From positions 13,341,921 through 13,405,920 of the forward strand of contig CM082581.2 in assembly GCA_040954595.2 (NCBI GenBank): a stretch of 64,000 bases of DNA. The letters are read 5' to 3'. The notes below the pieces were generated by a model. It did not search any database. It saw nothing but the letters and a program-made list of their open reading frames with translations, and was not told the DNA's origin. Below are positions 16,890-64,000 of the stretch, piece by piece (the first letter of the stretch is position 1; each line of letters opens with the position of its first letter). Both the position numbers and the translations under genes were made by a program. The stretch comes from Balanoglossus misakiensis (Eukaryota > Animalia > Hemichordata).

Positions 16890-17312
16890 CTATCGACGGT
16901 AATATCGGGTGGCCGTCTCGTCATCATCTGTCAGCACCACTTCCATCTCATCGCCATTCGCTTTGTACTCAACTGTGAACTGATCTTTCTCGTCCACGGC
17001 TTTCACAATCAGTTTATCGCCCTCGACGATTGCGACTGCTTTTCGCGTTTTCCCCATCGGATTGCACAGCTCGTCGAACTCCTCGCCGACTTTGAACTTG
17101 AGACTCTGGGCGTGGCCTTGGTCGTAATGGGTCTTGATGGTGTAGGCTTGGTCCTCTCTGCTGATCACCGTCTTGTGGCTGGAGGACACCACCGATCTGG
17201 CGACAGGGAGTGGCAACGCCAGCCCTTGCATCAAGACTTCTAACAGGTCATCACTGTCCGAGTCACGGTCATGTGTCCACTTCCCCAATAAGGCCACAGG
17301 AAAGGAAGACAT
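16890..17312 (-). CDS. Fatty-acid-binding protein / intracellular lipid-binding protein (iLBP), 140 aa, intronless CDS
   Basis: Single ORF with iLBP hallmarks: GKW near the N-terminus, FKVGEEFDE, EGDKL, GDEM and C-terminal ATRYYRR. Length is typical of the family. Confidence 0.88.
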   Translation of the reverse strand: MSSFPVALLGKWTHDRDSDSDDLLEVLMQGLALPLPVARSVVSSSHKTVISREDQAYTIKTHYDQGHAQSLKFKVGEEFDELCNPMGKTRKAVAIVEGDKLIVKAVDEKDQFTVEYKANGDEMEVVLTDDDETATRYYRR

Positions 17313-18327
17313 TTTGTCTCAGCTCGTTGCCCCAGGTGCTTTCTGCACAACCGAATGGATCAACACACCCAATTCCTTCTCTGGCTAGTGAGGTGGCTCG
17401 CAATATTCAAAAGTGAAAAAAAAAACTGGTATATAAATATAATTATGGTATTAACAAAACGGCACTCACCACTACAGTGGAGGGGGTACAGGTTGTGTTG
17501 TATGCATGTTGGGTCAACTGTAAGGGTGCTGTTTGAGGCCAACTGTACAGATGTTGTCAAATGCCAGGCTAATATATGGCATCTTGTAGTGGGCCCTTTG
17601 AAAGCAGGAGTTGACCAAAAGAAAACCACACTCTCATTTTAAACTAACGTATTCAAATTTTATTTTCAAAACAGATGCATCAAATGCTGGTGCATGTATT
17701 CCATGCAGAGAAAACCAAATTTACAGGTCAGGTTTCTAATGCAATCATGGGACAGTAAGAATGGAGCAAACATTTTGCATCTTCCTTAAATTTCACAGCT
17801 ATATTTCCACAGAGTAAGATCTTAGGTGGTGGCTTTATTGACTGCACCATGGAATGTTTTACTTTTTAAAAGAAAGTTACTGCTTATCATACAATCTAAA
17901 CTAGAAAAGTATTCTACATGTCACTTTACATATTCTGGTAGATGGCTCAAACACTTTTTCATTCTATAAAGATGCCTAGGTAATTATCAAAGATGAATTT
18001 TTTGTGTTTGAATGGCAGAAAGATTTCACCACGGAGTCACAAATGATCCCTGATTTATCAAAAATTGCACGTTTCCAAATCAAAGGCCATTCAGGGAATA
18101 AAATATTTCTTACTCGAATGCCATCTTCTGATGCAAACTGGGTACATTATCCTCAGGACTTTCATCAGTGATCCACTCCATCCCTAACCCTTACATAACC
18201 AGCTACCTCTATGTATGTACACTTGTCCATTTCAAGATCCAACACAGCAAACGTCACAAAAGCTGGACTGCCAAAGGTGGCCCCCATTGCCTTTAAATTG
18301 CATGTATCCCCCCTCCCCCCACTGTTT

Positions 18328-19272
18328 TCACTGTATAATGCCCGCTTTTGCAGCCATGTCTTTGGCTTTTGTGGAAGCACTTTTCGCAGTCTTTTTGAGT
18401 TTCCTTTCTGTCAGTGTCATGTCTTGTCCCTTGTCGAGGCCATACGATCTCTCCAGGGCAAAGATGAGTCCCTTTTCAGCGTTGCCTGCGTTCTTCTTGT
18501 AGCGCTCGACTCCGAATGCACTGATTGCCTGGGAAAATCCATAGATGCCGGAAGTGACCCATGCTTCCCGCTTCAACCTGGTCCCTTTCTTGTTGTTCTC
18601 ATCCAGAAGATATTCACACCTTTCTTCCACAACCTGCCAAGAGAAAATATCAGACACATAATTGTACAGTGTTATCTTTATTTGGAGGATCAGAACTTTT
18701 TCACAGGTGCTGGCCAACTATGAAGGAGGATCAAGACTTGAAGAATGTAAATATCAAGATTGGTGAAGTGCAAAATAGTAATCACTCACCATGACTGATT
18801 TCAGATATCCAATATTCCGTGTGTATGTTGTTAATGTCCTTGCTATGGGATCCACGACCGATTCTTCAACGATGTAAATATGCTTCGGCCCAGACACAAA
18901 GATTTCACCCCATCTTGGCAACCCCTTGTTTGTTTTGGAATACAACTTCCTTGTGAAAAGCCTTTTGTTTTGCACATAGCGACATATTGTGTCTTCTGTA
19001 AGCACGTGTTTACTGAATAATAAAAAGAAGCAAAACAATAGTCAAGTTAGGATGACTTACAAAAACATTCAGTTGTACCCTGGATGTCAATATCAATTAT
19101 CAACACACAGTACATCAACTGTCATTAGTCTGGATATCTATTTTTTCCTTGGGGTCTATGGTGGTACTCCATTGTATGCTTACCTTCTTGGGTTTGGATA
19201 CCTCTGGAAAAACGTTGATACAACTTGATCCCAGCTGTACTTGAAGCATGAAAACCCACTATAGTACTTCAT
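18328..19272 (-). CDS. PRELID1: PRELI domain-containing protein 1 (Ups1-like mitochondrial lipid transfer protein), ~205 aa
   Basis: complement(join(18328..18633,18790..19012,19184..19272)), 618 nt, GT-AG introns. It has the PRELI motifs YSWDQV..FFQRYPNP.SKHVLTEDT, LPRWGE, IVEESVVDP..RTLTTYTRN and FGVERYKKN, and a LEA-like C-terminus (AKSASTKAKDMAAKA) as in PRELID1 rather than PRELID3/SLMO. A non-coding first exon probably ends at ~19755. Confidence 0.9.
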
Positions 19273-19958: not shown

Positions 19959-21744
19959 ATGGATGTCCTGGTCTGGTCATTAGTTGCCGCGGCGATATTT
20001 ATCACAGCTGTTCTTTTCTTCGTCAGTAAATCACAAGATGAATGTAAGTGACCTTTTACGAAATACGCTAGAGTACAGTTATTCAGACGACCGTTTTCAG
20101 AATGAACGTGAATAGCAATTAGCTTTGACTCCCGATGAAAATTTCACGTTCACTTCCCACCCATCTATATCTATGTCAATGATCTATATCTTTCCACTTC
20201 AGTTTCATTCGCATAGCCACGACATTGCCAGTTTTCGTGTACTTATGGAGTAGTAACAAGCCAGTGTGGTATACCGTGTACCACTACTGCATCAACGTTG
20301 TGTTATTTTACTTTTTGTTAGCATCGAAAAGAGAGAAAAAGCCTAAAGAAAGGGCAGCAGGCAGTCGCGTACAAGATGCTGGTCCAGTCGGTGCCAGAGC
20401 TCGGAGGGGCAGAACGGCACAGGCTAGAATGAGACGACACGCTAGGCAAGATGAAGACGATGACGATGATGATGAAGAAGAAACTTGTAAGTAAACATCT
20501 GTTTACAAGAAATTGTGGAGGTTGTTTAAAATGAGCATGTTTTGAAAGTCCAAATCAATTTTGTATTTCATCATTTTCTTTTCCAGATGAAGATGAAGAG
20601 ATGTCTTATCTTGATGAACCAGTACTCCCAGATGGAAGTAAACCTGGAAAGAAAAAAATGAGAAAATTGGAAGAGAAAGCGTACAAGAGAGAAATGAGAG
20701 AGGTGATTAATAATCATCTGAAACATATTTTCTTGAGATACACATGCACACACACATCCAAACTTGTTGGAACACAGTACATGTATTCCTGAAGTTGATG
20801 ATTGTTTGCCCTGTGTTTTCCAGAGAGAACAGCAAGAGAGAGAAGACAGGAAGAAACGTCAAGAGCTACTGGATGTGCAGAGGAAAAAAGAAGATGAAAG
20901 GCGGGAGGCAGAAGAAAAAGAGAGGGTACGGTTAACAGTCCTGAAATCAAGTGGGATTGTCTGTTTTCCAGTTGATCCCTGTCACTAAAAGCAGAGAGTT
21001 TGAAATGTGACATTGACTTGTTTTACTTTTTTGTCGTTCTCAGGAGGAGGAGGAACGTCTCCGGAAAGAAGAGGAGGAGAAGAGGGAATATGAGGAGTAT
21101 CTGAAATTGAAGGAGGCTTTCACTGTGGAAGAAGAGGGCCATGAACAGATACTTACAGAGCATGAGGTACGTACATACAGTATAGACAAGCACAAGTTTG
21201 TAGACTAAGGTTGAATTGTAGTTACTGAATCCTTGTGGGTTAATAAGGAGGTGAGAGGTCTGAGATCATGCCCTGATTTGTATGGTTAATGTTGTAATTT
21301 CTTTGGATTTCAGTCGCAGTCGTTACTTCAAGAATTCATCGATTACATCAAGCAGAAGAAAGTTGTTATATTGGAAGAACTTGGTGCTCATTTCAATCTG
21401 AGAACACAGGTATGTACACCATCATGCTTTTGGCTTGTTCAACATTTGTGATTTCTGAACCCATCTAACCCTTGACCTCATATACATAACCAATATGACC
21501 CTTGACCCCTTTCTTTCCACAGGAAGTAATCAACCGTGTGCAGGAGCTTCAGGCTGAAGGGAAGTTGACAGGTGTTATTGATGACAGGGGAAAGTTTATT
21601 TACATTTCACAACAAGAAATGGATGCTGTGGCCAAGTTTATCAAACAGAGAGGGCGTGTGTCAATTACTGAACTGGCAGAGCACAGTAACAAGTTGATCA
21701 ACTTGCAGCCTGACAAAATAGAAGAAGCAGTTACTGCTCATTAA
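19959..21744 (+). CDS. DDRGK1: DDRGK domain-containing protein 1 (UFBP1, UFM1-ligase adaptor), ~302 aa, 7 exons
   Basis: join(19959..20043,20322..20486,20587..20702,20824..20925,21044..21166,21314..21409,21523..21744), 909 nt. It has an N-terminal TM anchor ([20 protein letters not shown]), a charged coiled coil, [15 protein letters not shown], and a PCI-like domain with [15 protein letters not shown]. Confidence 0.96.
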
Positions 21745-23636
21745 GTTTATGTGTGGTATTCTGATAGTATTTTAAACCAATAGCTGTACTGAGTGAAACC
21801 AAAAAATTAAATCCCATGTTCAGAGTTTAACAGTGCCCTTTATTCAAAGTCATTGTTTCCAGTCATGATAAACTGTTGTGTCGATGACTTAACTGCCAAA
21901 AGCCTGACAGCTGCCCATAATAGTGAGATTGTCCCAAATCGATAGAGTTTCAGATGAGGATACAGACTAGGTGGCGAATAGCGCCGCCAACGGTTATCTG
22001 ATGGATGCTTTCGGATCCAAAAGACGAGACCAAATTCTGAGTCTCCGTGCCAGCAATGCGTCCGAAACAGAATTTGGCAAGTTCAGGGCAAAACTCTGCT
22101 GTACCGACGAAGAGACAAAAATTACAGTGAACTGTCCCACGGATTCTCACGTTTTGGGTGTCGTTACTCTATACACTGCAATACACAAAACCTGGAGCTG
22201 TCAAAATGCCAACAGCGGGCGACTCTTAGCAAAACCAGAAACCAAGAGCGACATACCAAGGGGATTGCAACGTATTAAACTCTCAAACGAGACATAACTA
22301 TGAGGTCTCTGTCCTGCAATGTGGTTTCGATGAATACCAACCCGACTGACTGTAGAAACTAGAAATTCATGTCATGTCGCAGTACAGTCATTAAGGACCT
22401 GACCGTGTCAACCGACTCAGCATTTCAAGTATTTGCTGTCATGCTGAGAAAATGTCGGTGCTTGTATTCTGACATCGTGAATCTAAACCACCAAGCCCAG
22501 ACTATCAGAATGGACAACGAACTCTCCCACGGACCCATAATCAGTCAACTATTTATGAAGTATTCATAGTTATTTGTTCGATTTTTTCACTCCCATAGTT
22601 ATATTTTGTTGGTGTTCATAAATACGCGTGATGCATGACCAATCAGACATTTTGAGTCACTCCAATATTAGCACAGTGTCTACGTTTGTGTCTGTTTGAT
22701 TGTTTGCGTTTTAGACACAATAAATAAACCTTTCAGCCACCGTGGCAATTGTGGAATGATTTTCGTGTACACGCTAGCGGTTTCTTCGGCTATATACACT
22801 ACATTGACATCATTTTTACATTTATCACCGCAAATAAAACGTTTCACTTCGCGCATGATTACCTCAGCTGTTTGGAATTGACTCCGGGCACAGTTTGTAT
22901 CGGGTATTCTTCCGACGGTTCGGTGGGTGAATGAACGTTCCTTTCAGTTCTGCGTTCCTGCGCATATTTGCGAGATTTGTAATCCACCCTTGTCCGACTT
23001 TGCACAAAGCAGGCCCCACTAGTCAACTTTCACCGATCGCATATATTGATGTTGAACTTTCCGTCTTAAAAAGTTACGTGTCACACTAGTATAAAGTATT
23101 AGTAGTCGAAATGCTTAATTGCTACAAGAATAATAAATAATTTTGAAAACACACACACCAGAGATCAGTGAACCCTTTCTTATTTGGCTTTTTGTGTGGG
23201 GTTGATGTAGTGGAACTGCCACGTCTTAGTTCATTGTACTATCCATATATTTCAGTCCTGGACCTGATGATGACCTCAGTTGGTCTTAATTGACCCAAAT
23301 AACCCCGAAACCGTTGCCCAACTCTTGAAGTACAAAACAGGATTCCGCATATGTGCGTCTGTAAACACGATTAGGCAAATGAAAAGGTAAAGGAAAGTGA
23401 ATTCTTGGTCACGTTACGTTATCCATATATGGTTACTACTTCTGATAGAGGAGACCAAGTGGGCCTAAGAGTATTTTGACGCATGCGTGGTCATCTGTCT
23501 CACGGATATAGTATATATAGAAGTGCATGAGGTCAGGATATTCATTTTAGCTGGGCTGCCGAGACGAGAAGTTTTCCAGCAGTGTCTACAATTATTTCCA
23601 ACAGTTCCATTACTACAGTACAGATAGCGCTGAAAA

Positions 23637-24683
23637 ATGGCACACCAAAGCAACGACCCGGTACAGATACTTTCCCACATTCACTCGTACGCTCTGACGC
23701 AGGCGCTGGTAGGTGCTTGCCATCTTCGGCTCTTCGACCACCTGGAAAACGAAGGAGTGACGGCGAAACAGACGGCGGATACAGTGCAAGCGGACTACCG
23801 AGCGACCCAAGACCTATTGGACGCGCTGGTCACCATGGGCTACGTCCAGAAAATGGGCAGCGGCGCAGCGACTGTGTACAGAAACACGCAACTTGCCAGC
23901 GACTACTTGGTAACCACCAGCGCCCAGTCTCTGTATCCCTACATCATGATCCAAGGCCAGGTGGCCTACCCGGTACAGTCTAATTACAAACACGCCGTTC
24001 AGGAGGGCCGACCCCAGTTGCAGCGCACTTTCAACCAAGGTCAGTACTTCTCCGACATCGTTTCCAGGGACCCCAAGAAAGCGATGGCGTTCTTCGCATC
24101 TAAGCATTCACTTGCGCGTGTCTTCCACTGTCCAGTGGTCCTGGAAAGTTTTGATTTCTCCGAGTATCGAGAAGCTTGTGATCTCGGCGGAGGGAGTGGT
24201 ACCATCGGACTGGCACTGGCGCAGACCTACGAAAATTCAATGTCGATAACTATTTTCGATTCCCCCATGGCCATCGAAGCTGCGAAAAAATTCATCCCCG
24301 AATCCAGCATTCCCTTGAATTTGATATTCTCAGCGGGCGACTACATGAGGGATCCCTTACCGTACTGTGATCTGTACGTGTTACCCCACATCATCAATAT
24401 GCTGCCCGACGAGAGGGTAGCCTTCCTTTTGAGGAAAATTTACGCTACCATGGTACCCGGGGGTGCCATCCTCCTGTTGGAAAACCTGTTCAACGACGAC
24501 ATGCGCGGGCCGCAACTTACTCACATGCTGTCGCTGGGTCTTTTGGCTTTCAACGGGACGAGGCAGCGGTCTTTCGAAGAAGTCAAGAAACTCCTGGAGA
24601 GCCAGGGCTTCAAAAACGTGGACGTGAGGCGAACGGGGTCCCTGTCTGATGCTGTTCTGGCTAGGAAGCCACATATGCCCTAA
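23637..24683 (+). CDS. ASMT-like SAM-dependent O-methyltransferase (methyltransferase family 2 with dimerisation domain), 348 aa, intronless
   Basis: Long single ORF with the N-terminal dimerisation region (ALVGACHLRLFDHL...LLDALVTMGY...YRNT), SAM motif CDLGGGSG, IFD, AGDYMRDPLP and PGGAILLLE, QRSFEE. A TATA-like TATATATAG sits at 23512-23520. Confidence 0.9.
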   Translation: MAHQSNDPVQILSHIHSYALTQALVGACHLRLFDHLENEGVTAKQTADTVQADYRATQDLLDALVTMGYVQKMGSGAATVYRNTQLASDYLVTTSAQSLYPYIMIQGQVAYPVQSNYKHAVQEGRPQLQRTFNQGQYFSDIVSRDPKKAMAFFASKHSLARVFHCPVVLESFDFSEYREACDLGGGSGTIGLALAQTYENSMSITIFDSPMAIEAAKKFIPESSIPLNLIFSAGDYMRDPLPYCDLYVLPHIINMLPDERVAFLLRKIYATMVPGGAILLLENLFNDDMRGPQLTHMLSLGLLAFNGTRQRSFEEVKKLLESQGFKNVDVRRTGSLSDAVLARKPHMP

Positions 24684-47800: not shown

Positions 47801-50800
47801 ATAGAGTTAGATATTGATAAATGGAAAGAGTCTTTTACTTCAAAAGGAATAAACTTCAAATTGTACATAACCAGCTTTCGATTGGCTATCATGTGTTTTC
47901 CATCGTGCGTGTCACATGGATCATTTTGTGGGGAACATGGATCATTGGGTTGGTGACTGTGTCTTGTTTCCGTTTGTCTGATGTTTGTCATTCCTCGCCT
48001 TCATAATCATGTTTTGGTTTTCATTCCATATAGATCCTCGCCAGTACAACGGAGTGCCGGCAGCCTACCAGTTTAGGCCACTACCGGAAGCACCTCACGG
48101 TATTTGAGTTTGTTGTATTGAAATCATACATTCTCTCCCGTCACCTCTGCTTTTCTTCTTTTTTTTCTAGCTACTGTAACAGACTCTGGTGGATTGGGTT
48201 CTGGGTTTCTCACTACTTAGCTAACACATTGAGACTTTGCAATAAAAATGAAGTCGATCTTGAAAGTTGATCAGAGAGTTTCTGTCGAACAAACTTCAAG
48301 TTGAGACAGAAAGTACAAAGAGTAAAAGCAGTGCGCATGATGACCAATATTTGAAGATGAAATTTACGGACAAGTTGTGCTGTCATAATCAGCGGTTCAT
48401 AGCACATTTCAGAAAGCAAATTAACACAAAAAAATACCAATGAGACCAAAACTACCTTGAGATCAAAACTTTAATCAAATCATTGTCAAATGGTGGTCAA
48501 CTTGCAGCATCATTTCAAATGCAGTCACAAGTCTCAATGTCACCTTGCAAGGATAAATGAAATTGCGACTAACACTTCTCTGCACAGGATACTAACACAC
48601 AAGGCCATGCATCTTTAATACCTGCCAGTATCCTGTTCATCTCTTCTCGGTGTGATATTAACACTTGACTTCTCTGATTGTTTGTGTGTTTATTTCAGAC
48701 AGACATGTCAAGATTGACATTACTGAGTAGGCAAAGCATAGCCTCAAAACAGAGCATATTGATCGTATACCAAGTTCAACCCATTGGGATGATGGCTATA
48801 TTTGATACATTTACCTAAATTGGCATTTGCTTTTCTTGCTCAGAAATGTTAAAATTGACATCAGATTGTCTCAGTCAAAGCAGTTGTTGTACCATTGTGT
48901 TCAACTGCAGTGATGGACCTTTATATGTCAGGGAAATGGGGGGTGAAAGGGTTCAAAATATTGCTTCACTTGCATACCAGTTGACTGTTCTGCTGACAGC
49001 TTTTACTTTCCTCCTCTCCAAGTGAAACCAACGCTTTACTTTTTAGGTGATAATTCCTGTCCATCTCCTGGCTGTCCTGCTGCAGTGTGTGTTTAAACAC
49101 TATTCTTTTTCCATGTGACTTTTGCAGACGTACATTTGTTTATCTATTAACTTTACTTTCTTCTTCACTTGGTACTCCAACCTTATGCTGTAAAAGTGGC
49201 ACCCCACCTTGTAAAATAGCTTTTGTCAATGTTATGCTGTTCTTGCATAATTTGATGTGGAAAAGAGCAATCATTATCAAACCCTTCCATGTGAGTTAAC
49301 GAATTTTACAAGACAGGAGCACCACTTTCAGTACACTTGATGTCAATAATCCCTTTACTTAGTTACCAACTTTTTTCTCAGTTGTCAACATAACAGCAGA
49401 TGAGAGCTGGCTAACTCAACACAAATCTTAAGCGACTGAATGGACAACTTGCATACACTCTTCCTTTCATTCTAGTCTAACCTGCGCTCTTTCCTTCATA
49501 GGTGAAGGTTCCTTTCTTACAGGCGTAATTAGTTGTGGTAGTGGTAGTACACACAGCTTGCTGACTGACCTGTGATAATGTGCCAAAATCTTGGACATTA
49601 CCATAACCATAACCATACTTTGAAGAAGATATTATTGCAAAGATTCAATTTGGCTTGTGATATTGGACATGAACATATTCTACCTAATAGTGCTGTAATA
49701 ACATTTCTTACAAATTTGACAATCTGTAAAGAGTACCATATATTAACAAATGCAGTGCAACAGTTCTCAATGCAGTAATGATCAACAACACTCAAGGTCA
49801 TACTGGTGTTTTGCATGCCAAGTCTGGCCTCCAATTTGCATATTAATGTGCTAACATCTGCTCTCCTTACTAATCTTGCTAATCTTGATCTGTTGTTCAG
49901 GCTTCCTGGCATGTAGTTTTCTTTAGGCTCTCTGTGGTTCAGAAGAAGTCTCTCCTAAGATTGCAACAGGTATCATCATGCTCATTGTTGTCCATAAGCA
50001 TTGCATGCCCATTTTCCATTTTATTTTCATGACAGCCAACACCAGAATCTCATCCCAACATCAGACACGCACATCACAGCATGAATCACGTTCATCACAA
50101 CATCCGAAACACAAGAAGAAGTCCTCTGCATCCAAGTCCCGTACAAAACACCGCGAGAGCAGCAAGCAGCATGTTGACCACTATCCCAAGCAGAAATATC
50201 CCAGCAAGCCTGTTGGTAACTATAGTGACCAACGCAGTAGTTTCAGTGGCAGCTACATGTACCCCAGCAATCAGTTCAGTGGGCAGCGCAGTAGTCAATA
50301 TGGCCGCCAGGGCAGCGGTTACTATGACTACCCCCAGGGGATGGACTATGGCTACCAGCGCAGCAGCAGTTATCAACCAGACGGGGAGGATTACCTCATG
50401 CCACACGAAACACCACAAATTAATTATTTCAATGACCTGTACCGCCATGGTCCCAAGGGTAACTAAATCATTTTCCATATTTCGTCAGTGCGTGTGATTT
50501 TGTGTTGCAATCAATGTGCACTGTTCGTCAGAAACGGTTCATCCACCAACAGAACTTTGCCTGTCGTGTTTCATTTTCATGCAGCCATCATCATTTTGTG
50601 TGTCATCCTCTCCAATAAATATGCAACTGCATGCAAAAGGAAATTTTACTAATTGCATGACAGGAATGCTTGTTACAAAGTTCATGGGAATAATGCACAA
50701 TGCTGTGTGAGGTTTTTTTGACAGTCCATATTTAGATGTGAAAATCCCAGTAATGTAGTGTCTGCTACTAGTAGTTGCTTTTCTGATGGTATGACTTGTG

Positions 50801-53227: not shown

Positions 53228-53560
53228 ACCAATCAATGCAAAGATCCACCAGGTGCTTTTCCACATTTGTAACCATGCTTTGGCCGCGTCACCATTTTTC
53301 CGGTGAAACCGTCGGCCGTCGTGACCGAAGAAAAACATCCAGAGGCTGACAAGCTCTAGGGTTACTACTTGTTGTTCCCGGATTTTGGAAAACTTCTCCG
53401 GGACAGTTGCAAGACTCAGTGTGGAAAGAAACTGCCAGTCCTTCAGATTCTGCCGAGAAGTCTGATCCATCAAGCAACATGTGAGCATACACCACTCTCT
53501 TTTGTTACTGATAAAGTGGCATGATTACCTTTTAATACCGTAAATACCCCATAACAAGAT
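53228..53560 (+). repeat. Diverged dispersed repeat, copy A (homologous to 63128-63503)
   Basis: Shares collinear blocks with copy B: caccaggtgct, gaaaaacatc, acttgttgttcc.ggattt, gaagtctga.ccatcaagcaaca, gtgagca, tggca.gattac, aacaagat.gc. Confidence 0.75.
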
Positions 53561-55177
53561 AGCATTATCTGTGCGATCATGACACATGTATTCCCCTAAA
53601 GAGGGCATCTTGGAGCTTTAAATTTCAGAGTAGTTTCAAATCACACCGCCAGTTTCACGGAAGGATTTATTTTATAGCCACCATGATTTGCAAACACAGA
53701 TTTCCTTGTCTCGTTTTACTCTGGAAACTCTCGGCTTTGGCGAGAACGACAAGGACACATGTGGCATGCACACCACCTCTGAGCCCAGGTGTAATGAAAT
53801 ATTATCGTTCCATCCTTTTCTGTGACATGCGCCGTTTTCATGCATCATCTTCGGCCATCTTGTCTAAATTGGACGGCCAACTCATCCACTGTCTCGGGGG
53901 AAATCAACTTTAAAAATCCCTATCGACAACGTGAGTTTTACTTCGGCTGTTAACTGCCTGTTTGTGGGCAAGCGTCCAAAGAGATTATGGAAAAATACAG
54001 AATTTGACAGTCAGGTGCAATAAAATCCCACGACTTCTCAATAAAGAGCCTACACTTTGGAAAATATTCAGTTAAGGCTTTGAGGTATCTCGAGTGATCA
54101 GAAAAAAAAAGAAAACACCGATCTTGTTCATAATTATTCTTGACAGCACAAAATAAATTGTCATCGATAAGAACTCATCAATCTCACTATTTATGGCATT
54201 TTAAAAATCACTCGGGATGTATTAGAAAGGAAGAACCCACTTGTAAAACAAACGTCATAATCTTAAACAACGTCGAAACGTACCAAATTCGTTAGTATGT
54301 TTGACTGAGCCGCATATGAAGGACACGATCTCAAAGGGACGATGTAATCTCATCCATTAATACTGTATTTTAAATTCTATAACATCGTCGAATATGCTAG
54401 TGTCATTTGTCTTATTCAACCTGACACGAATGGCCGTTCGCTCAACGAATTGATGAGGACTCATAGGTATCCCAACCCTCCCGACAATAAGCAGCATTTT
54501 CCAGCCAAAACCTTTGTCAGGTTTCGCAAACTTCCTTTGAAATGTTTATATTTGAATCGTCCGGTATGGAAGGGGTGTGCGAAGATGCACAGGTTTTATC
54601 GGCTCCCGTGGTTTGAAGCCTACGTAGTACCGGTGTCTGTCTGTCTGCCAGTTTCTGTCTGTCTGTGTCAGGATTTTGGAGTTTGACCGTCTTAATTGTT
54701 TTTCGCTTTCACGAATCCTCGTGGTGTGTACGAAAAGAAGACACCGATGCGTACTATTGGATTGTGACTTTCTTGGGAGAAATCGTTTACTCAACTCACG
54801 TACATGTATCTAACGCACAAGAGTGCATGTGGTTTGAACAATAAATCCCGCCATTTTGTGTCCCGATAGAGAAGTGACCCCACGGCGGTTGTGCTCACGT
54901 ACAATTCAGTGAAATTTAATCAACGACTTAAATACAGTATGTTCACCACATTAATCCCCACAGACTTGAAAGCCGCTTGCGGCACCAACACAAACGTCAT
55001 CATTACCACCCCGAAACTATGTACAGAAGAGTAATACATTAAGTCCAAGTCAACGTCAAAAATGTAGAAGAATGTCACACAAAATTAAAACTGTGCAAAT
55101 AAACATAGTGAGTTTTAACTTTTCAAAATATTTCTCTGTGGTCGAATAATATTTTTTTTCTGGATTCATGACAAACG

Positions 55178-58100
55178 TCACTGCCTCGTTTTCAATTCTT
55201 CTTCCGCTTTGGCTTCCAACAGTTCCATGAGTTTGCCCACGTCTTCGCGTAAACTGTTGGCAACTTCCATCAAATCCGCAGTAGATACCTGCAAGAGATA
55301 AGAATGTCAGGATTAGCCACGTCGTATTCATCTTATTTTACGGAGTGTCCATAGACTATTTCCCCGGGCCAATTTCAATCAATCCGCCGTCTGAGCCGCG
55401 AATTTTAATCGACTGCAGATCAGTTTTCTAGATTATGAAAACAAGAATCCATCGTGTCATTTTTCATTTATCTAACTCCTCCAGGTCGAAACATATCTTC
55501 GAAGGCTGCAGTCGCTCATCTCGAATCTCAAAGATCGCATCGCACTTACTTTGTTAAATGGCAAAAACAGAAACCACGTTTCTTACTACGGTGCTTATAC
55601 TCAGCCAGCTATAAGTATCATCATTTGAGCGTTAATCCTGAGAATATTACTTTGTCTATTCAACCTTCCCTGGGGTCTCTCTGATAACGTCCAATGACCC
55701 ATAATTCAAATGCCCTTTTCTCTCAGTCGATAAATCGAAAACCCGTATGACGCCATCGGTGACTCTATGTTTATCTGTATGATCCTTGAATTGCAAATAC
55801 TTCACAGTTCAAATACCTGTATTGACTGATTGGCATCATGCAAAGCCGACAATAAACCCACACTGCCTTGTTCTTTGCTTGATACGCAAGTGGATCAATA
55901 CGTCACCTCAGAAGTTATCTCAACTAATCACGTTAGAGGAGAACACCGGTATGAGAGACTTCTTCATTATTTTTTAGCACAAGATTCCAACTTTAAGGTA
56001 ACCTTCCCCTATAAAACGAAAACATGAGTTCGAACTTTTACCTAATTGCCATATTTTCACATTCAAATAACTTGACAGCGTCGCTCAGAACAGACTAGAC
56101 GATGAGCAGATGAAGATAATTGCTTTAATAGAGAGGAATGCCGCTTAGAGATTAACATCCTCTCTTATCATTATTCATCGTTTACAGAATGGAAAAGACT
56201 AATAACACAGTTCATGTGCCCTGCATTCTTAAAACTGAGACAATTCACCTTTCAAATGATACTCACGAACTGTTACATAGTACATTGTTACGGCAAGATA
56301 TTAGATGATGCCAAGGGGCACTTTACTTTTCCAATTAATGGTATATACATGTCAGATAACAGCGTCAAGTACAGCTGCAACTGTTTCCCCATGACACTGA
56401 AAGTGGGCGCCTATTTTTTTGTTAACCAGCCGTGCACTTACAAACTTCAGCGAGGAACTTGATGCGGATAATTGAAAGCGTCCACTTGATCACTTTAAAC
56501 AATTCCCGAGGATAGTATTTGGCACGCGAGCCAGTTGATGCGGGCATGGCATAAGAGATGGTGACAAAACGATTACTTTAAGACACTTCTTTAAATGTTC
56601 ACATTAACGCCACGTCCCCATAAGACAGCGTTTTGAACATACCACTTTATCAAACGTATTTATCTTGTCCGCCTCAATATTTGCAAACGCCTTCCAGGAC
56701 GCAGTGGCTGTCGAAAGATAATCACAGGGTCGTGACCTTGCATTATGGCGCGGAATTTCATCGAAAAGGCACTCAGTGGTATGCCATGCCATGAATGTCA
56801 TGAATGTCACGTTCGTCTCCACCTATTGACAAGTTTCTGTATGTTCTTATAGAAGTATAATTGGAACTGATGCTTTATCCCGTGGCTTGCGTGTTTTGTA
56901 TGGCTTCACTTTCGTGGTGGTGTTACCATGGTGACCGTTACTGGGCTGTCTTATATGATTGACAAGGATGGAGGGGTTGCCCCATCTTGCGTTCTACACC
57001 AACCAGAAGTGGGTTCTGGGTCACGTGTTTTAACTTATGTTTAATCGCTACCATGTGCTTTTGATGAGAATCAGCGGGGATCTTTTGGAGGAGGAACCCC
57101 AAGTTTCAGCTCTGTACAACTTTTCCTGATTTGTTTTATCCCTACCAGATAGCCAGCCCCGAGTCACCGATCGCGAGATCTAAGACGTCTTTACCTTAGC
57201 GGTTCGGTGTGGGCAGATTTCTTCGACGAGAGACGCTTGCTTTCCGGCGAGTTCCGCTGTTTGTGAGATGCGGGTCCGTCAGCGTTGTATCGTTTTTTTT
57301 TCAGAGGCGGGAACGTCCGGGCTTCCGTTACAATTTGGCGGCAACGATGGGATTGTTAAGGCAACTTTGGTTCAGGAGCCCCTTTCGAATATTAGCCAAG
57401 GTCTTCATCAACGCAGCGGTAAGGTTTGGTCGGTGAATGTTGTTTGTTGAGAACCGTTAAACTTATATTGTATGTAAAAGAGGTCACAGGAGTTCGTGGG
57501 CGTGTTAGCACTCTGGGCACCGTACTCCTCACGGGATCTGTTAACGCAGGTCAGTGCAACACATTCCCCGGGCTTTTGTATCGTCTTCTTTTGCTGTGAT
57601 TTGGGAGCTATATAGTGTTCATTTTTAGGCATTCTGTGTCTCTGTGTCGACAGATTGGTGTTGTTTTTTGTATCATATGATTGCTATTTTATACGGGGGA
57701 CATGAATTTATCGCAGGATAGGGAGGTTGTTTTCAACAATAAGTTTGATTCTGAGTTCGAGAGAACAGACGTCGATTCTACGGTCATTTCTGATGAAGCC
57801 CTGAAAACTCCGCTCGTTTCATCACGCACAGGGAGGGGGGGTTTAGATATCTGAAATTTCCAGGAATTTTTGTGGTACAAATGCCATTTTCCAGGATGGT
57901 TTACTGGACAAAATTGTGCATATTACTATTACTGTTACATTCACATTTACTCAGTGTTTTTCTATAGTTTCAACAAATCATTTTAGAGATTTTCAATTGT
58001 GATGACTAATTGCCCCTGAACATCGATATCAGGGGTGTCTGCCGTCTGTTTTATGCAGACGCGCGGACGCCTGGCATGACCTCTAACAAAAGTTGCTACA

Positions 58101-61100
58101 TCTTTACAAGGTTAGATTAGTTGTTGCAACCGGAACGCTGAGCTGAGTTAATTGTTGCAATTTGTGCATGTTAGTTGCTAGGCTATGATGCTATTTATAG
58201 GACGCCTGCCTAAAGAAACTGGTGCACTTTTACCATGGCCATTCCCCCTAGCCCTTGAGATGCAAAAAAGAGGGGGGGGGGGGGGGGGGGGGGGCAGGGG
58301 CTAAGCCTGGCGTAGTGGACAGCGCCCTCACGCGTCAGGCGGCGGTAACACCTGAAGTGCTGTCTTCTCAGGGTCAAGACAATTCAGTGTCATCAATGAT
58401 GGGAAATGTTTCTGGGGGTTTTCCTGACCGTGTTGGAAGGGATTATTCCCACGCGAACAGGGTTGTTGGTAATACAGGGACTGGTACTACACAAACACTG
58501 GGTGTTGAGTTGGGTGGTGCCTTGCGGGAAAGTGTTGCTGGGTTGCCTTGGCAACATCACTGTTGTATAACTTTGGTTATACTTTCTCTAGTCCCCAATC
58601 CATGTTGAAACGTATTCAGAATGTCATTGTATAGACATTTAACGTGTATTTGAAATACATGCAACGGAACGTCAAACCCCTATTTTAAGTCTTTTTGCAA
58701 CAAAGACATGTACATACTGAATACTGGCTGTTTTGATACTTTGTATTGGGTGGAGCCAGTCTACAGCTGGTAATACACATATTAAGGAAAATACTGAAAA
58801 TATCATCAAATGTTATCCCTGTCCTTAAAACCACCGCAAGCCAATGATGACAAGCGTACTTGTTGCCACCAGAAACGATTCCATAAAACATCATTGATTT
58901 TTACCGTCAATCGTGCGAGAACCCAACCGAGGTCTATTTTGTATGTACAAATAGCCGAGCAAGTTGATATTATACACTCCCCGTTTAGCGCCGGGAATAT
59001 GCACTTTCTAAGTTGACGTGGCATAGTAATACTTGTAATGGTTCAATAAAGAAGCTGTCAAATAAAGAACAGCATCTCTCTTAATGGAGAAATATACGTT
59101 TTGATGACAGGGACTGATATCGATCCCAATTTAATGACGTGGCGCGTGCGCAACCCCGTTTTGATATTAGGTTTGAGTAGACACATCGGTCCGCTAACAG
59201 CTACATCAAATTGAACTAAACCAAAATGACAAAGATGAAACTATTATATCGGAAAATAGTGCTTCGTAATACTAATGGTCTTCCCAAGTCATTTAGCTGT
59301 ATACATATTGCCTTGTACTAAAACACAGTTCAATTCACGCAATCCATAAAACAGTAACGTTGACATGTTTTGTACCTTGTACAGTTTTGCGCGCTTTAAT
59401 AGTCATTCCAGATTGAAGAGGATTGGCCAGGTTCATTTAGCGTTCTGCAGGTGGAGAAAGTTTATGTCTAATTTGTCGTGATATAAAACGTGGTTAGACC
59501 CTTAATGTAGTTTTAACCCAGCGGGGAGGATTTTGTGAGTTATAATTGCTTTTTGTGTGAATGCCCGCGACGATTCAGATGCGTCAGAGTTTCGGGTAAC
59601 ATGACAGAAGAGACGCCAAAGTTTTATTCGTTCTAACATGAATGGAGTGGCCGTTAAAAAGTTATGCAAGTTTATAAACACGTGATGATAACGCCAAAGA
59701 GTTTGTTATAATACACGTGCAGTATTGATGCCGGTCTCAGCATCGTTATTGACAGAGGTACTGAATACGGTTTCACTTTAATCAAGGGATTACTGCTTTT
59801 GAGAACGACTTCAATTCACCATTTGGAAATAGTGATGCTCCTCAAAGAATCCACGTCGCTTCTCGTATTTTGGAGAGATTTTAGTCTCAACACATTGTCG
59901 GCAACAAAAGACTCGACACTCGATCGCCCCTTTACATGTCTGACACGTAAGATTATATGGCTGTACTGCTTATTCATAAACATCATCTGTAAAAGATGAA
60001 TTCTTTACCTTAAATCATATTTCTTCAGGGTTAAGCTTGAATAGTCGTGTGACATTACTTTCTCAAGGCTGCATTGAAATTACCATGGGCCTTAGGCTGC
60101 AAGATCCAATTTTTCTCAATTACCCAGAAGCAACCTTGGTATACCTCAACGCGTTATTACTTGAAATCCTCATCAATAGTTCTTCGATTAAAAAACGGTA
60201 TGGGTTAATTTAACTATGTAAACTTCTATGAAATTGGCATTAGCAGAGCTTAGTTTCTAGAGATTCTCACAGGGCGCGTACAATCTCAAGAACCAAGAAA
60301 CTTTTCATCCGGTTGCCTGGGTGAAATATACTTTCAGGTCTGTCGTTTGTGCGTCCAAGTACTTTATAAGTTTTATTCCTCCCCGGTAATATAATCAAAT
60401 TGTCTAAATGCAAATCGAACAACAAGACACGTCATAAATCCGTTGACATTTTTTGACAATGTCGACAGGTGCTGCTTTTATTGTTGAAGACAGTTTTTGT
60501 CGTTTGGCGGCAGACTGCGAACTCCGGTGTTTTGTGTATTCGATCGAACGGAACCCGAAGTTTTACAAGGAAAACATTTCCTGTCACACATTGACTATTT
60601 CAGACCAGCGATTATCTATCAGACACTTTGTATATGAGTTTTCCTCTACTGCACAGGCAACCTATTAATTTCGCACTCAGTTTCCGTCACTTTAATGAGA
60701 AAAAATGACACAAGTCGACAAAGTTCCTTATGCCATGAGATTGTGTTCACCGTATGCTTTCACAAGTCGATAGTACTACGCATGAATGCGAACCCAACCA
60801 ACCAAAAATAGCTTTCACGAATTCGACCGGCTTAAACTAAGGCTATTTGCGGTTTAATATCATTATTCCTCGCGATGAACATACATTTGCAGTTTTGCCG
60901 TGTCTTTGTATGAGAAACATAAGTCTGTTTCTTGCACGAAGAAAGTGCAGTTCGAATATATTCTAACCGCCCTTACAGAATCAAGATACTCACAAATGGA
61001 TCATCCTGTGTTCGCTTTCTTCCGGGTGCCCACATCTGTCCACCTTTGCCAGAATAATGTAGTGTGGCATCTGTCAATGTACTGAGTACAACCATCGATA

Positions 61101-61134
61101 GTAATACCATGGCGCACACTTTCGAATTTGCCAT
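55178..61134 (-). CDS. Corazonin/GnRH-superfamily neuropeptide precursor (corazonin-type), ~135 aa
   Basis: The first coding exon, 60994..61134 (acceptor tttctccccAG at 61170, donor TTT|GTGAGT), encodes MANSKVCAMVLLSMVVLSTLTDA|TLHYSGKGGQMWAP-G-RKR-TQDDPF: signal peptide, peptide, amide-donor Gly and basic cleavage site. Best-fit phase-0 continuation is 57695..57850 (ISKPPLPV...CDKFMSP) and last exon 55178..55288 (VSTADLMEVANSLREDVGKLMELLEAKAEEELKTRQ*). The first coding exon is high confidence; the downstream exons are moderate. Confidence 0.78.
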
Positions 61135-61526
61135 TGCTGTTGTGTTGTTGTTGGGGAGGTGTTGATGCTCTGGGGAGAAATGTCGTAAAAGTCAATTCAC
61201 AAACTCCAAATACTTTAAATTTTCTTCTGTGACTTGATTGACGAAGAAAAACAATCAGAAAGAACGAAATGAAGAATCATACTCTGATCAGATTAGAAAC
61301 TAAAAGATGAAAATAAACCAACTCTTTCAACCGCTGATCTGTTAATGTCGCCGATGACGAATTTCGTTTTGCGCCTTTGCGGAGAAAAAGATTTTACCGA
61401 AAACTATGTCGACTATAACGACAGACTGCCACCGCCATAAAAATTAAAAACAGCACCCAAGACGGTTTCTTGCCGTGCGTTGAATGTAAGCAGGATCCCC
61501 GCGCCAAAAACACTAAACGTACTTAC

Positions 61527-61626
61527 CGTTTATGAGTGCTGTTGGGCGCAACTTTTCAGGCGTGCTTTCTTCTTTGCAGACTCGGCGATTACTTCACGCT
61601 GGACCCCTTAACTCCCGTTATTTATA
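61527..61626 (-). promoter_or_regulatory. TATA box and non-coding first exon of the neuropeptide precursor gene
   Basis: Minus-strand TATAAATAA at 61626-61618, predicted TSS ~61595, and a strong donor ACG|GTAAGT at 61526 that can splice to the acceptor at 61170. A CRE-like TGACGCAA lies at ~61776-61783. Confidence 0.65.
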
Positions 61627-63127
61627 CTCGCCTCTGCAGGAAGCATGCGAGGAAGTTATCAACTTCAGCCGGAGCTCATGCATAGATAATGAGCGAGCCT
61701 TTCAGATTGTATTATTCAGACGCGGTTGTGCCCAGTCCCCAAGGAATCCCAACTCTTAACATCCATGAAAAGCGCTTGCGTCAATAAAACAGGATTTTTC
61801 TTGGAAACAGGTGTAAAAGCGTTCAGGTGTTTCGGGGGATAATATTGACACCACTGTAATTTCAAAAGACTTATTAACCAAGGCGAAGGCAGCGGTTAAT
61901 CGAGATATCCAAGTTTAATTATTTCCTTCAGTTGATTACCATCGTGAGTTTACGAATTTGTTCAATATTTGCAACGTAAGCCCCCCCCCCCCCTCTTCGG
62001 ATTACTCCAACGTATTTCGCCTCAATGAAACCGATACACACAAAACCCCCACTCAACTCACATCTATTAGCAGAATATCTATTCTAACAATCCCTGGGCC
62101 ACTTTTAAGAAGGACACTTACTACGCCAACAGCTCTCCCTTTGGAATTTCCCTGACAGCAACGATCACGTTAGAGCATCGTTCATCTGTCACCTCTCATA
62201 GAAAGTTGTAACAAACCACAAAAATAAGTTTTCTGAAAAACACGACAGTGTACAATCACCCTCACCTCCATTACGCCTGTTAAAGTGTTAAAAGCCACTC
62301 CCAATACGCAGCACAGATTTCACTTTTGACTGGTCACTTCCATTCGATTATTCAAGCCTTTTTATGCCTGACTGCTCCTCTATTTTGTACAAATAACTTG
62401 CTCCTCGCCACCACTGTCATAGGAAAGCTCTATCATGAAACACTCAAGGATACAACATACAAAACAGACCCGTTCGTATAGGACAAAATTTTGGACAAAA
62501 CTTGCTAATTTTTTCCTATAACCCCTTTCCAGGTATAAGCGCTATCAGCTATCACTTTCAATTATGGATTTTGATTGATAACGCCTATAAATACACCAAT
62601 GCTCACTGAGCAGTCGAGGTTCATTAATTGATAAGGCGCTAGCGTCCAAACTCCAATAAATAATACAGGTTGCATGAGAAAATGCAACTTTATCAGTGGG
62701 TGAACACTAAACAAAAGGTCGTAGCTATAAAATAGCAATTATATCTTATTTATTAAACAGCATATATTTTAGGCAAAGCAGATATTTACAACTGGTATGG
62801 GAAATCTGCCAAAATATGACATTGTCAGCATTTTGAAAATGCCTTTCTCATTGACAAGCGGGAAGGGTTTGAACATCACTTAAACCGGTGAAAACTGAAA
62901 TTGTCTCAGTCGATTTAGGCATGAGATAATCACTCAAGCCATGAAACAGATTAGTATAAGTGTTGATTGTAAAGAAAATAATACACAGACTCTATGCAAA
63001 TTCATCTCAAAAAAGCAGTCAGAGTGCCGACCAATATCTGAATGACCTCGTGTACATTAATTATTCGGCGCGCAACACCTGGTGTAAGACATGACCAATC
63101 CCGACGCACACGCTGTTTTCCTGTTAG

Positions 63128-63503
63128 CCAATTAACAATTAGAGCTTCACCAGGTGCTGTTTTGCATGTGCCACCCATACCCATGAGAATTTCCGTTGTG
63201 AAATAGTGTGCTTGATGACGATGGCATGGATGGTGTATTCTTTCTGGACCAGAAAACGCATTAAAAAGTGAAACAGAAAAACATCGGAGGATGCTGAGGA
63301 CGACTTGTTGTTCCTGGATTTGAGAGAACTTCCCGGAGAATATTTGCAGAACTGTATGTCGGAGGAAATTGCCATTCCATCAAGTTTGTCGAAGTCTGAC
63401 CCATCAAGCAACAGGTACAGGTGAGCACATAGGCCTTCCGCCATGTTATGTTAGTGATAACATGGCACGATTACAAGCTCATACTCCCCGAGAACAAGAT
63501 GGC
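63128..63503 (+). repeat. Diverged dispersed repeat, copy B (homologous to 53228-53560)
   Basis: See copy A. The antisense ORFs at 53289-53495 and 63139-63444 both contain LLDGSDF because of this homology. Confidence 0.75.
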
Positions 63504-63606
63504 GACCCGTCACATTCATTGCACACGTGCAACCTATGAAGACCGTAATTCGTTGCTATATCTTTTTCTAGGGAATAGTAAATAGTAATCGTGGCTTGTT
63601 ACAAAC

Positions 63607-63784
63607 TACTGTAAAACACTTTATTTTCGCGAGCAATTATTTTTCGCCAAATACGCGAGAGCCAAAATAGCGTAAATTGTTTTTGAAGATAACGATGCAG
63701 TGAATGAAATAAGAGAACGCGAAAAAGTGGCCTCTCTCGATATCGCGAAAAATTTAACTCGCGAAAATAAAGTGGTTTACAGTA
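63607..63784. mobile_element. MITE with ~25-bp TIRs and TA target duplication (Tc1/mariner-superfamily-like)
   Basis: TA|CTGTAAAACACTTTATTTTCGCGAG ... CTCGCGAAAATAAAGTGGTTTACAG|TA, with one mismatch between the TIRs. Confidence 0.85.
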
Positions 63785-63930
63785 TGTTGTTTATATGTCC
63801 CTTGTTTATATTGTTCGGCATTTGAGCTAGCAATGGCAAATGCCCCCAAGAGGAGCAGCATCTATGATAATGCACCCCGCGTGGTAAACTTGTTTAGCAT
63901 CGCGACTGCGGAAAAACGTCGTCTAGCTGA

Positions 63931-64000
63931 AACAGGTACAGGTGAGCACATAGGCCTTCCGCCATATTATGTTAATGATAACGTGGCACGATTACAAGCT
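63931..64000 (+). repeat. Recent direct duplication of 63410-63479 (runs to the window edge)
   Basis: 70-nt copy aacaggtacaggtgagcacataggccttccgcca...tggcacgattacaagct with 3 substitutions. Confidence 0.9.

What the first reader, a model, noticed from the sequence alone, without database searches (positions are those of the whole stretch)
60994..61134. Hidden corazonin/GnRH-superfamily neuropeptide gene: predicted TLHYSGKGGQMWAP-amide
Seen in sequence: a 47-codon minus-strand exon, below the ORF-track cut-off. It encodes a 23-aa signal peptide ending T-D-A, directly followed by TLHYSGKGGQMWAP, Gly and RKR. It has a textbook acceptor and donor, an upstream non-coding exon and a TATA box. Established: GnRH/AKH/ACP/corazonin precursors place a single peptide right after the signal peptide, and H-[FY]-S...W-x-P-G is characteristic of the superfamily. 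Recalled, to be verified: it aligns without gaps to the 14-residue hemichordate corazonin-like peptide (pQPHFSLKDRYRWKP) as H-[FY]-S-x-K-x4-W-x-P. Like echinoderm corazonins, it lacks an N-terminal pyroglutamate. Inference: a divergent, easily missed corazonin-type ligand, possibly a lineage-specific paralogue.
Basis: partly seen in the sequence, partly recalled or inferred. Interest (0 to 1): 0.9.

Follow-up and report, generated by a model that had tools for sequence, protein, structure and literature searches.

The report
Hidden acorn-worm corazonin/GnRH neuropeptide gene
This stretch, likely from an acorn worm, has the layout of a small spliced gene predicted to release one 14-residue amidated nerve-signalling peptide of the corazonin/GnRH family; it is more likely a corazonin, but it could be the GnRH for which no acorn-worm precursor was found in the papers searched.

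Summary
The exon is there as described. It is the only signal-peptide + short peptide + Gly + dibasic architecture in the window (1 hit; 0.03 per shuffle). Neighbouring genes place the window in an acorn worm nearest Ptychodera flava. New here: a predicted last exon 5.7 kb downstream (55288-55178). It has the best acceptor of 318 in the interval, completes an 83-residue precursor, and encodes the amphipathic helix shared by echinoderm corazonin and GnRH precursors (rank 1 of 47,710 and 2 of 69,855 windows). DDRGK1, a neighbour of the vertebrate oxytocin/vasopressin-GnRH2 block, lies 33 kb away. Superfamily membership is about 0.88. The subtype is open. One coding intron, 14 residues and P-amide favour corazonin (0.55). 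The Leu-His-Tyr start, the Trp-x-Pro end, the helix start and loss of the invariant corazonin Arg11 favour GnRH (0.3). Only one hemichordate precursor was found in print: XR_438542, called corazonin in one paper and GnRH in another. No transcript, homologue or receptor could be tested. Verdict: a new member of a known family, with a testable chance of being the unreported hemichordate GnRH.

The parts
61620..61626 (-). TATA box (TATAAAT)
   Evidence: Only TATAAA[TA] on the minus strand between 61500 and 61800; function inferred
61527..61596 (-). Predicted non-coding exon 1; 5' end estimated about 30 nt after the TATA box
   Evidence: Donor G|GTAAGT ranks 17 of 7,883; no ATG; no transcript evidence
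61170..61526 (-). Predicted intron 1 (357 nt, in the 5' UTR)
   Evidence: GT...AG
60994..61169 (-). Predicted exon 2 (176 nt): 35 nt of UTR and 47 codons from ATG 61134
61066..61134 (-). Predicted 23-residue signal peptide
   Evidence: One Lys, uncharged hydrophobic core, T-D-A end; SignalP not run
61024..61065 (-). Predicted mature peptide TLHYSGKGGQMWAP-amide (monoisotopic mass 1530.74)
61012..61023 (-). Gly (amide donor) and Arg-Lys-Arg convertase site
   Evidence: only [WF]-x-P-G + dibasic in six frames of the window
55289..60993 (-). Predicted intron 2 (5,705 nt, phase 0, six codons after the basic site); the only coding intron found
   Evidence: No credible symmetric middle exon: best of 10 loose candidates scores 1.3 in sum
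55178..55288 (-). Predicted last coding exon (36 codons and stop); completes an 83-residue precursor
   Evidence: Best acceptor of 318 between 60960 and 55000, rank 15 of 7,038 in the window; open in phase 0
55214..55273 (-). Amphipathic helix matching the C-terminal domain of echinoderm corazonin and GnRH precursors
   Evidence: Corazonin motif rank 1 of 47,710; GnRH motif rank 2 of 69,855; hydrophobic moment reached by 209 of 20,000 shuffles
54915..54920 (-). Nearest poly(A)-signal candidate (ATTAAA); the first AATAAA is at 53671
   Evidence: unverified
19959..21744 (+). DDRGK1 gene, 33.4 kb from the peptide gene's stop: synteny marker, not part of the gene
   Evidence: Pfam DDRGK E 7e-06, PDB DDRGK1 E 3e-06, DDRGK motif in the last exon, distance

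Best explanation
This is likely a three-exon acorn-worm gene for a corazonin-type neuropeptide precursor that is predicted to release one amidated 14-residue peptide. Shown by the sequence: the open frames, splice dinucleotides, hydrophobic N-terminus, peptide + Gly + Arg-Lys-Arg, a downstream exon encoding the family's C-terminal helix, and a DDRGK1 neighbour. Inferred: exons at 61596-61527, 61169-60994 and 55288-55178 are spliced into one mRNA for an 83-residue precursor; signal peptidase cuts after Ala23; a prohormone convertase cuts at the basic site; carboxypeptidase trims it; the amidating enzyme converts Gly38 to give TLHYSGKGGQMWAP-NH2 with a free N-terminus; neurons release it and it activates a corazonin-type GPCR, by analogy with starfish probably as a muscle-exciting neuromodulator. 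The helix-bearing remainder would be the co-released associated peptide. Confidence is about 0.88 that it is a real GnRH/corazonin-family gene and about 0.55 that it is the corazonin type (orthologue of Saccoglossus XR_438542 about 0.4, second corazonin paralogue about 0.15).
For: (1) Architecture unique in the window. (2) One coding intron of phase 0; one intron is the published mark of deuterostome corazonin genes and two of GnRH genes (PMC10321317; PMC4923880 supplement S9 legend); no credible middle exon. (3) 14 residues, ungapped against the Saccoglossus corazonin with 5 of 14 identical plus Tyr/Phe (counted by eye); 7 of 14 ambulacrarian corazonin classes met, reached by 279 of 200,000 permutations. 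(4) One Gly before the basic site (Pro-amide), as in Saccoglossus and sea urchin corazonin; all 4 Trp-containing echinoderm GnRHs seen have Pro-Gly-Gly. (5) Exon 3 is the best of 47,710 windows for the 20-column echinoderm corazonin helix, 14 of 20,000 shuffles. (6) Eleven residues from basic site to helix, against 10 in Saccoglossus corazonin by my alignment and 28-35 in starfish and urchin corazonin and starfish GnRH. (7) DDRGK1 33 kb away; it is linked to the tetrapod oxytocin/vasopressin locus drawn with GnRH2 (PMC4432659), and amphioxus corazonin sits beside vasotocin (PMC3969558, as reclassified). This supports the family, not the subtype. (8) Atlas feature neighbours of exon 2 with a named family are all neuropeptide precursors, GnRH 0.87 and corazonin 0.85; under 0.9, so leads only.
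Against: No transcript, so the 5.7-kb splice is unproven. No homologue found in three protein searches or the PDB and no Pfam hit for exon 2 at E<=1. Arg11 and the bulky hydrophobic residue 6, present in 5 of 5 ambulacrarian corazonins seen, are Met and Gly here. The peptide ends fit echinoderm GnRH better; the corazonin-specific middle is weak (3 of 6; 8,539 of 100,000 permutations). The first 12 helix columns fit asterozoan GnRH (rank 2 of 69,855) far better than corazonin (rank 266). The Tyr-Cys pair of echinoderm corazonin helices is absent. The helix is no closer to Saccoglossus corazonin (5 of 20) than to starfish corazonin (6 of 20), odd for a one-to-one orthologue. On its own the 14-column corazonin motif is not significant across the window: 32 of 63,455 windows reach 7 matches and it ranks 8th by score. 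No vasotocin, NG-peptide or neurophysin motif lies in the window.
Confidence: 0.55

Rival explanations
1. It is the hemichordate GnRH: same gene and processing, but the peptide would activate a GnRH/AKH-clade receptor, with a second gene in the genome being the corazonin. The gene would have lost, or hides, the second coding intron, and the peptide would have lost pyroglutamate and the terminal Gly as amphioxus GnRH did.
For: Leu-His-Tyr at 2-4 and Trp-x-Pro match echinoderm GnRHs: 5 of 8 end columns, BLOSUM class score 25.6, 12 of 100,000 permutations, against 10.5 and 119 of 100,000 for corazonin ends. Helix columns 1-8 match the motif of starfish and two brittle-star GnRH precursors, 5 of 8 identical to starfish. 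Amphioxus GnRH also ends aromatic-Ala-Pro-amide, has one Gly and no pyroglutamate. Invariant corazonin Arg11 is missing. GnRH signalling is described as retained throughout Bilateria, yet only one hemichordate precursor was found in the papers seen. DDRGK1 is a neighbour of the vertebrate GnRH2 block.
Against: One coding intron, not two. 14 residues against 9-12 for the deuterostome GnRHs seen; the GnRH end motif was scored with the middle left free, so this was not penalised. No Gln1, no Gly-Trp-x-Pro, no Pro-Gly-amide. The GnRH helix motif rests on only three asterozoan sequences; sea urchin GnRH does not share it. The only Saccoglossus receptor listed by PMC4923880 is classed as corazonin-type, and PMC3969558 calls the hemichordate position ambiguous, so a hemichordate GnRH receptor is not established by what I saw.
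Confidence: 0.3
2. It is a real secreted amidated peptide of another or a new family, and the likeness to GnRH/corazonin comes from convergent short motifs and a generic amphipathic helix.
For: No database homologue. Atlas top named hit is prolactin-releasing peptide (0.88), and only 2 of the ten best family hits agree. Several families put one peptide right after the signal peptide. Amphipathic helices match each other easily.
Against: Peptide, helix register, intron phase and the DDRGK1 neighbour all point to the same superfamily; the helix falls in the same register for both paralogues, which PMC4772807 says share a C-terminal domain.
Confidence: 0.08
3. It is not an expressed gene: a chance arrangement or a dead copy.
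For: No transcript or homologue was found; exon-2 splice sites score only moderately.
Against: Architecture arises 0.033 times per shuffled window; TATA, strong exon-1 donor, intact frames, a top-ranked downstream acceptor in the right phase and a family helix behind it would all have to be chance; there is no stop or frameshift.
Confidence: 0.07

Closest known systems
Saccoglossus kowalevskii corazonin precursor, XR_438542 (pQPHFSLKDRYRWKP-amide; PMC4923880 supplement S9)
   Same: Same phylum; 14-residue peptide directly after the signal peptide; His3, aromatic 4, Ser5, Lys7, Trp12, Pro14; one Gly; one coding intron; similar length (91 against 83) and short linker to the helix
   Different: Only 5 of 14 identical; Thr instead of Gln at position 1; Gly-rich, nearly uncharged middle instead of four basic residues; no Arg11; helix only 5 of 20 identical in my alignment
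Echinoderm corazonins (ArCRZ HNTFTMGGQNRWKAG-amide, receptor-tested; urchin, brittle star, sea cucumber)
   Same: No pyroglutamate; aromatic 4, Ser/Thr5, Gly8, Trp12, Lys7 in three of four; Gly-Gly-Gln shared with starfish, one place shifted; 20-column C-terminal helix
   Different: No His-Asn-Thr start, no Arg11, no hydrophobic 6, no Tyr-Cys in the helix, linker shorter by 17 residues or more
Echinoderm GnRHs (ArGnRH pQIHYKNPGWGPG-amide, receptor-tested; urchin and two brittle-star precursors)
   Same: Aliphatic 2, His3 (Tyr4 as in starfish), Trp-x-Pro-Gly, helix start L-x-E-[IV]-A-x-S-L as in starfish
   Different: No Gln1, no Gly before Trp, Pro-amide not Pro-Gly-amide, 14 not 11-12 residues, one coding intron not two
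Branchiostoma floridae GnRH (YSYSYGFAP-amide) and corazonin (FTYTHTW-amide) (PMC10321317)
   Same: Divergent members without pyroglutamate, missed by ordinary searches; GnRH ends aromatic-Ala-Pro-amide; corazonin has Gly-Arg-Lys-Arg and one intron
   Different: Much shorter peptides; little residue identity

Membership tests
GnRH/AKH/ACP/corazonin superfamily | Single peptide directly after the signal peptide | tested here: met
   cleavage site by hydropathy and the (-3,-1) rule only
GnRH/AKH/ACP/corazonin superfamily | Gly + basic site giving an amide; Trp near the C-terminus | tested here: met
   W-A-P-G-R-K-R
GnRH/AKH/ACP/corazonin superfamily | First coding intron of phase 0 after the peptide (deuterostomes) | tested here: met
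   Donor at 60993, phase 0; criterion from PMC10321317; splice predicted, not observed
GnRH/AKH/ACP/corazonin superfamily | Conserved C-terminal helical domain | tested here: met
   shared domain stated in PMC4772807; rests on the predicted link to exon 3
GnRH/AKH/ACP/corazonin superfamily | Profile match to Pfam family models | tested here: not met
   No Pfam family for exon 2 at E<=1. Not defining: I did not test whether known ambulacrarian members pass these models
GnRH/AKH/ACP/corazonin superfamily | Location in the GnRH/vasotocin/NPS neighbourhood | tested here: inconclusive
   DDRGK1 at 33 kb; no vasotocin or NG-peptide motif in the window; noticed after the fact
Corazonin type | One coding intron | tested here: met
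   No credible middle exon; prediction only, a micro-exon with weak sites cannot be excluded
Corazonin type | 14-15 residues with [FY]4-[ST]5 ... [WY]12 (ambulacrarian pattern) | tested here: met
   Tyr4, Ser5, Trp12; 7 of 14 classes
Corazonin type | Arg11 and hydrophobic residue 6 (5 of 5 known ambulacrarian peptides seen) | tested here: not met
   Met11 and Gly6; absent also from amphioxus and protostome corazonins, so not family-wide
Corazonin type | Activates a corazonin-clade receptor | not testable with these tools
   Needs the receptor and a cell assay
GnRH type | Two coding introns (deuterostomes) | tested here: not met
GnRH type | N-terminal Gln, Gly-Trp-x-Pro, Pro-Gly-amide | tested here: not met
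   Thr1, Met-Trp-Ala-Pro, Pro-amide; criteria from PMC4772807; amphioxus GnRH lacks Gln1 and Pro-Gly-amide too
GnRH type | Aliphatic 2, His3 and Trp-x-Pro as in echinoderm GnRH; asterozoan helix motif | tested here: met
   patterns read off 4 and 3 sequences, not a published definition
GnRH type | Activates a GnRH/AKH-clade receptor | not testable with these tools
   Needs the receptor and a cell assay

The most novel reading that the evidence does not exclude
This is the hemichordate GnRH ligand, the gap between echinoderm and amphioxus GnRH: a mosaic peptide with echinoderm-GnRH ends, corazonin-like length and one intron, lying near DDRGK1 as vertebrate GnRH2 does. It would break the intron-count rule used to tell the two paralogues apart, and it would mean the published Saccoglossus 'GnRH' expression map (probe XR_438542) shows corazonin while true GnRH neurons are still unmapped.
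Probability: 0.3. Interest if true: 0.72.

Novelty: new member of a known kind. Interest (0 to 1): 0.5.

Why it matters
Starfish and amphioxus each have receptor-tested GnRH and corazonin. For hemichordates I found one precursor in print, named corazonin in PMC4923880 and GnRH in PMC10508912, and that naming feeds an argument for a hypothalamus-like centre at the proboscis base. A second, very different acorn-worm sequence makes the question testable with one synthetic peptide and one genome search. If it is the orthologue of the Saccoglossus gene, it shows that the otherwise constant Arg11 and basic core can be lost within one class of animals, which is modest news. If it is a second gene, hemichordates gain their GnRH or an extra paralogue. 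Either way it supplies a query for a gene class that annotation tends to file as non-coding RNA (both the Saccoglossus and the sea urchin corazonin carry XR_ accessions).

Tried and rejected
No whole genome is held for this window, so no search for a second family gene or for receptors. No RNA holder was listed for 54700-61700; this is no evidence either way. Homologue searches: exon 2 against proteins of 84-2000 residues, 4 candidates and 0 scored; against 35-114 residues, no candidate; phmmer over 1.84 billion representatives gave 4 hits at E 3e-05 to 3e-04, all multi-stretch; two were read and all four Pfam-scanned, three being repeat-rich surface-type proteins and one a repetitive protein with no family; rejected as noise; PDB 0 hits at E<=10. 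Atlas on exon 3: nothing above 0.83, low recognition. No second copy of either exon in the window (tblastn, best other E 0.9 and 0.13). Middle exon: 1 candidate at strict and 10 at loose thresholds, best summed score 1.3 against 8.5 for the exon-3 acceptor alone. An exon-like 62-nt stretch at 57256-57195 has a weak acceptor (-0.9) and would shift the frame; rejected as part of this gene. Plain match-count versions of the helix motif did not rank exon 3 among the top six; only BLOSUM-weighted scoring did. Gly-Arg-Lys-Arg as a corazonin mark (4 of 8 against 0 of 10 in S9) was dropped because a brittle-star GnRH has Arg-Lys-Arg too. A C/A-rich likeness between this 5' UTR and that of XR_438542 just before the ATG is too low in complexity to count. 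My first guesses of amphioxus or crinoid as host were dropped. In one search the DDRGK1 splice check used wrong coordinates and failed; the last exon was re-read. A tree or HMM of full precursors was not built, since the published precursors were not available as stored sequences; subtype assignment therefore rests on short class motifs. No structure or complex was predicted (peptide too short, no receptor in hand). Five look-ups of earlier scan findings gave nothing on this genome or sequence.
Full report
Observation. A TATA box at 61626, a strong donor at 61526, an acceptor ending at 61170 and a phase-0 donor at 60993 are present, with no upstream ATG in the predicted UTR. By a generic, recalled weight matrix the exon-1 donor is strong (17 of 7,883) and the exon-2 sites are moderate (256 of 7,038; 613 of 7,883). 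The architecture signal peptide + short peptide + Gly + dibasic occurs once in six frames of the window and 0.033 times per window in 60 resamplings; my thresholds were chosen with the locus in view.

Host. The intronless methyltransferase frame at 23634-24683 is 76% identical to a Ptychodera flava protein, 67% to Glandiceps talaboti and 66% to Saccoglossus kowalevskii, then falls to 37% or less in the other 23 of 26 hits (global identities 76.4, 68.2, 66.0). The window is therefore inferred to come from an enteropneust, probably a ptychoderid other than P. flava. This rests on one gene.

The rest of the gene. The best acceptor of 318 between 60960 and 55000 is at 55289/55288. It opens 36 codons in phase 0 and a stop, giving 83 residues with exon 2. 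Residues 6-25 of this exon form an amphipathic helix (209 of 20,000 shuffles reach its moment). Scored with a 20-column class motif from four echinoderm corazonin precursors, this is the best of 47,710 stop-free windows in the whole window, and 14 of 20,000 shuffles of the exon reach it (6 of 5,000). In the same register it is second of 69,855 for a 12-column motif from three asterozoan GnRH precursors (17 of 5,000 shuffles). The two paralogues are reported to share this domain. Unweighted match counts did not single the exon out, and the margin over the runner-up is small (21.8 against 20.7). The splice is a prediction. If intron 2 were read through instead, a 53-residue form would still yield the same peptide.

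Surroundings. From 8 to 51 kb the window holds a C2H2 zinc-finger gene, a fatty-acid-binding protein, a PRELI gene, DDRGK1, the methyltransferase and prominin. DDRGK1 ends 33.4 kb from the peptide gene's stop. PMC4432659 names ddrgk as linked to the neurohypophysial genes in tetrapods and lists DDRGK1, fabp1, ptpra and GnRH2 in the legend of its synteny figure (the figure itself not seen). PMC3969558 places vasotocin beside vertebrate GnRH2, limpet AKH and the amphioxus gene later renamed corazonin. One such neighbour among six genes is unlikely for a random gene (my rough estimate, a few per cent, noticed after the fact), so it supports the family but not the subtype. No vasotocin, NG-peptide or neurophysin motif (recalled patterns) is in the window.

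How it likely works. Shown: the parts above. Inferred from general knowledge of neuropeptide processing: entry into the secretory path, cleavage after Ala23, convertase cut at Arg-Lys-Arg, trimming, amidation from Gly38, release of TLHYSGKGGQMWAP-NH2 (1530.74 Da) with a free N-terminus, and action on a GPCR of the GnRH/corazonin group. In starfish both peptides contract muscle preparations (abstract) and ArGnRH did not induce spawning in vitro, so a neuromodulator role is the safer guess than a reproductive one.

Corazonin or GnRH. For corazonin: one coding intron, the criterion of PMC10321317 and of the S9 legend of PMC4923880 (its main text states the reverse); from recall, the second coding intron of human GNRH1 falls inside the helix that exon 3 encodes unbroken; 14 residues in ungapped register with the Saccoglossus peptide (5 of 14 identical); Pro-amide from one Gly; the long helix match; a short linker like Saccoglossus. 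For GnRH: ends that fit four echinoderm GnRHs better than five ambulacrarian corazonins (25.6 against 10.5; 12 against 119 of 100,000 permutations; middle left free); a weak corazonin middle (3 of 6); loss of Arg11 and hydrophobic 6; a helix start like asterozoan GnRH; no greater likeness to the Saccoglossus precursor than to starfish ones; and amphioxus GnRH as a precedent for no pyroglutamate and Ala-Pro-amide. Weighing these by judgement I give corazonin type 0.55, GnRH 0.30, another family 0.08, not a gene 0.07.

Novelty. The peptide string is in 0 papers of the library. Nine further searches and the passages read showed no ptychoderid GnRH or corazonin and no second hemichordate precursor. 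The Saccoglossus probe called GnRH in PMC10508912 is XR_438542, the accession of the corazonin in PMC4923880. The 2018 nomenclature review by Zandawala, Tian and Elphick is not held; subscription papers, figures, the cut part of the PMC10321317 archive (its receptor tree files), most of the PMC6188537 supplement (8,325 characters held) and the PMC3969558 synteny table were not seen and could hold a hemichordate GnRH, a Ptychodera precursor or DDRGK1 in amphioxus. No protein homologue was found, which fits poor annotation of such genes but also means there is no conservation evidence.

What I saw of each paper. PMC10321317: parts 1-3 of 4 of the text, supplement list, a search, and parts 1 and 4. 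PMC4923880: passages, supplement searches and part 3. PMC10508912: passages and supplement search. PMC3969558: passages, sections 8 and 14. PMC5627052: passages and two supplement passages. PMC5626854: abstract, outline and section 31. PMC4432659: passage and section 20. PMC6188537: passages and supplement search. Passages only: PMC5860471, PMC9793003, PMC5818035, PMC6586643, PMC13407887, PMC4772807, PMC9974683.

Verdict. A well-formed, probably real and unannotated GnRH/corazonin-family gene of an acorn worm: a new member of a known kind.

Noticed in passing
window 8220-9913 (+): C2H2 zinc-finger gene (Pfam); the fingers look like the transcription factor Glass (name recalled, from no call), which in flies is needed for photoreceptors and the AKH-making gland (recalled).
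   Followed up: partly
window 16890-17318 (-): Fatty-acid-binding-protein-like frame of 142 codons without introns; fabp1 is also listed in the vertebrate vasotocin synteny figure legend, but the subfamily here is unresolved.
   Followed up: partly
window 18328-19011 (-) and 19959-21744 (+): PRELI-family gene and DDRGK1 head to head.
   Followed up: partly
window 23634-24683 (+): Intronless acetylserotonin O-methyltransferase-like gene with close relatives in three acorn worms and much lower identity elsewhere.
   Followed up: partly
window about 27700-51300 (+): Prominin gene, apparently with extra 3' exons encoding a long Ser/Tyr/Gln-rich tail (45732, 49927-50466, 51111); tail to tail with the peptide gene. 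The tail exons have no convincing Pfam hit and their link to prominin is a guess.
   Followed up: no
window 57195-57256 (-): Exon-like 62 nt with a fair donor (rank 107 of 7,883) and weak acceptor inside intron 2; may be an alternative first exon or chance.
   Followed up: partly
window 53364-53482, 63300-63479, 63931-64000 and 63601-63790: Pieces of a dispersed repeat on both sides of the peptide gene, and a 33-nt inverted repeat 124 nt apart that resembles a miniature transposon.
   Followed up: no
window 58252-58608 (+): 118-codon stop-free frame inside intron 2 on the other strand with no Pfam hit.
   Followed up: partly
literature, PMC10508912 and PMC4923880: The Saccoglossus 'GnRH' expression probe is XR_438542, the transcript classed as corazonin by the paper it cites. 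PMC4923880 also gives opposite intron counts for the two families in its main text and its supplement.
   Followed up: yes
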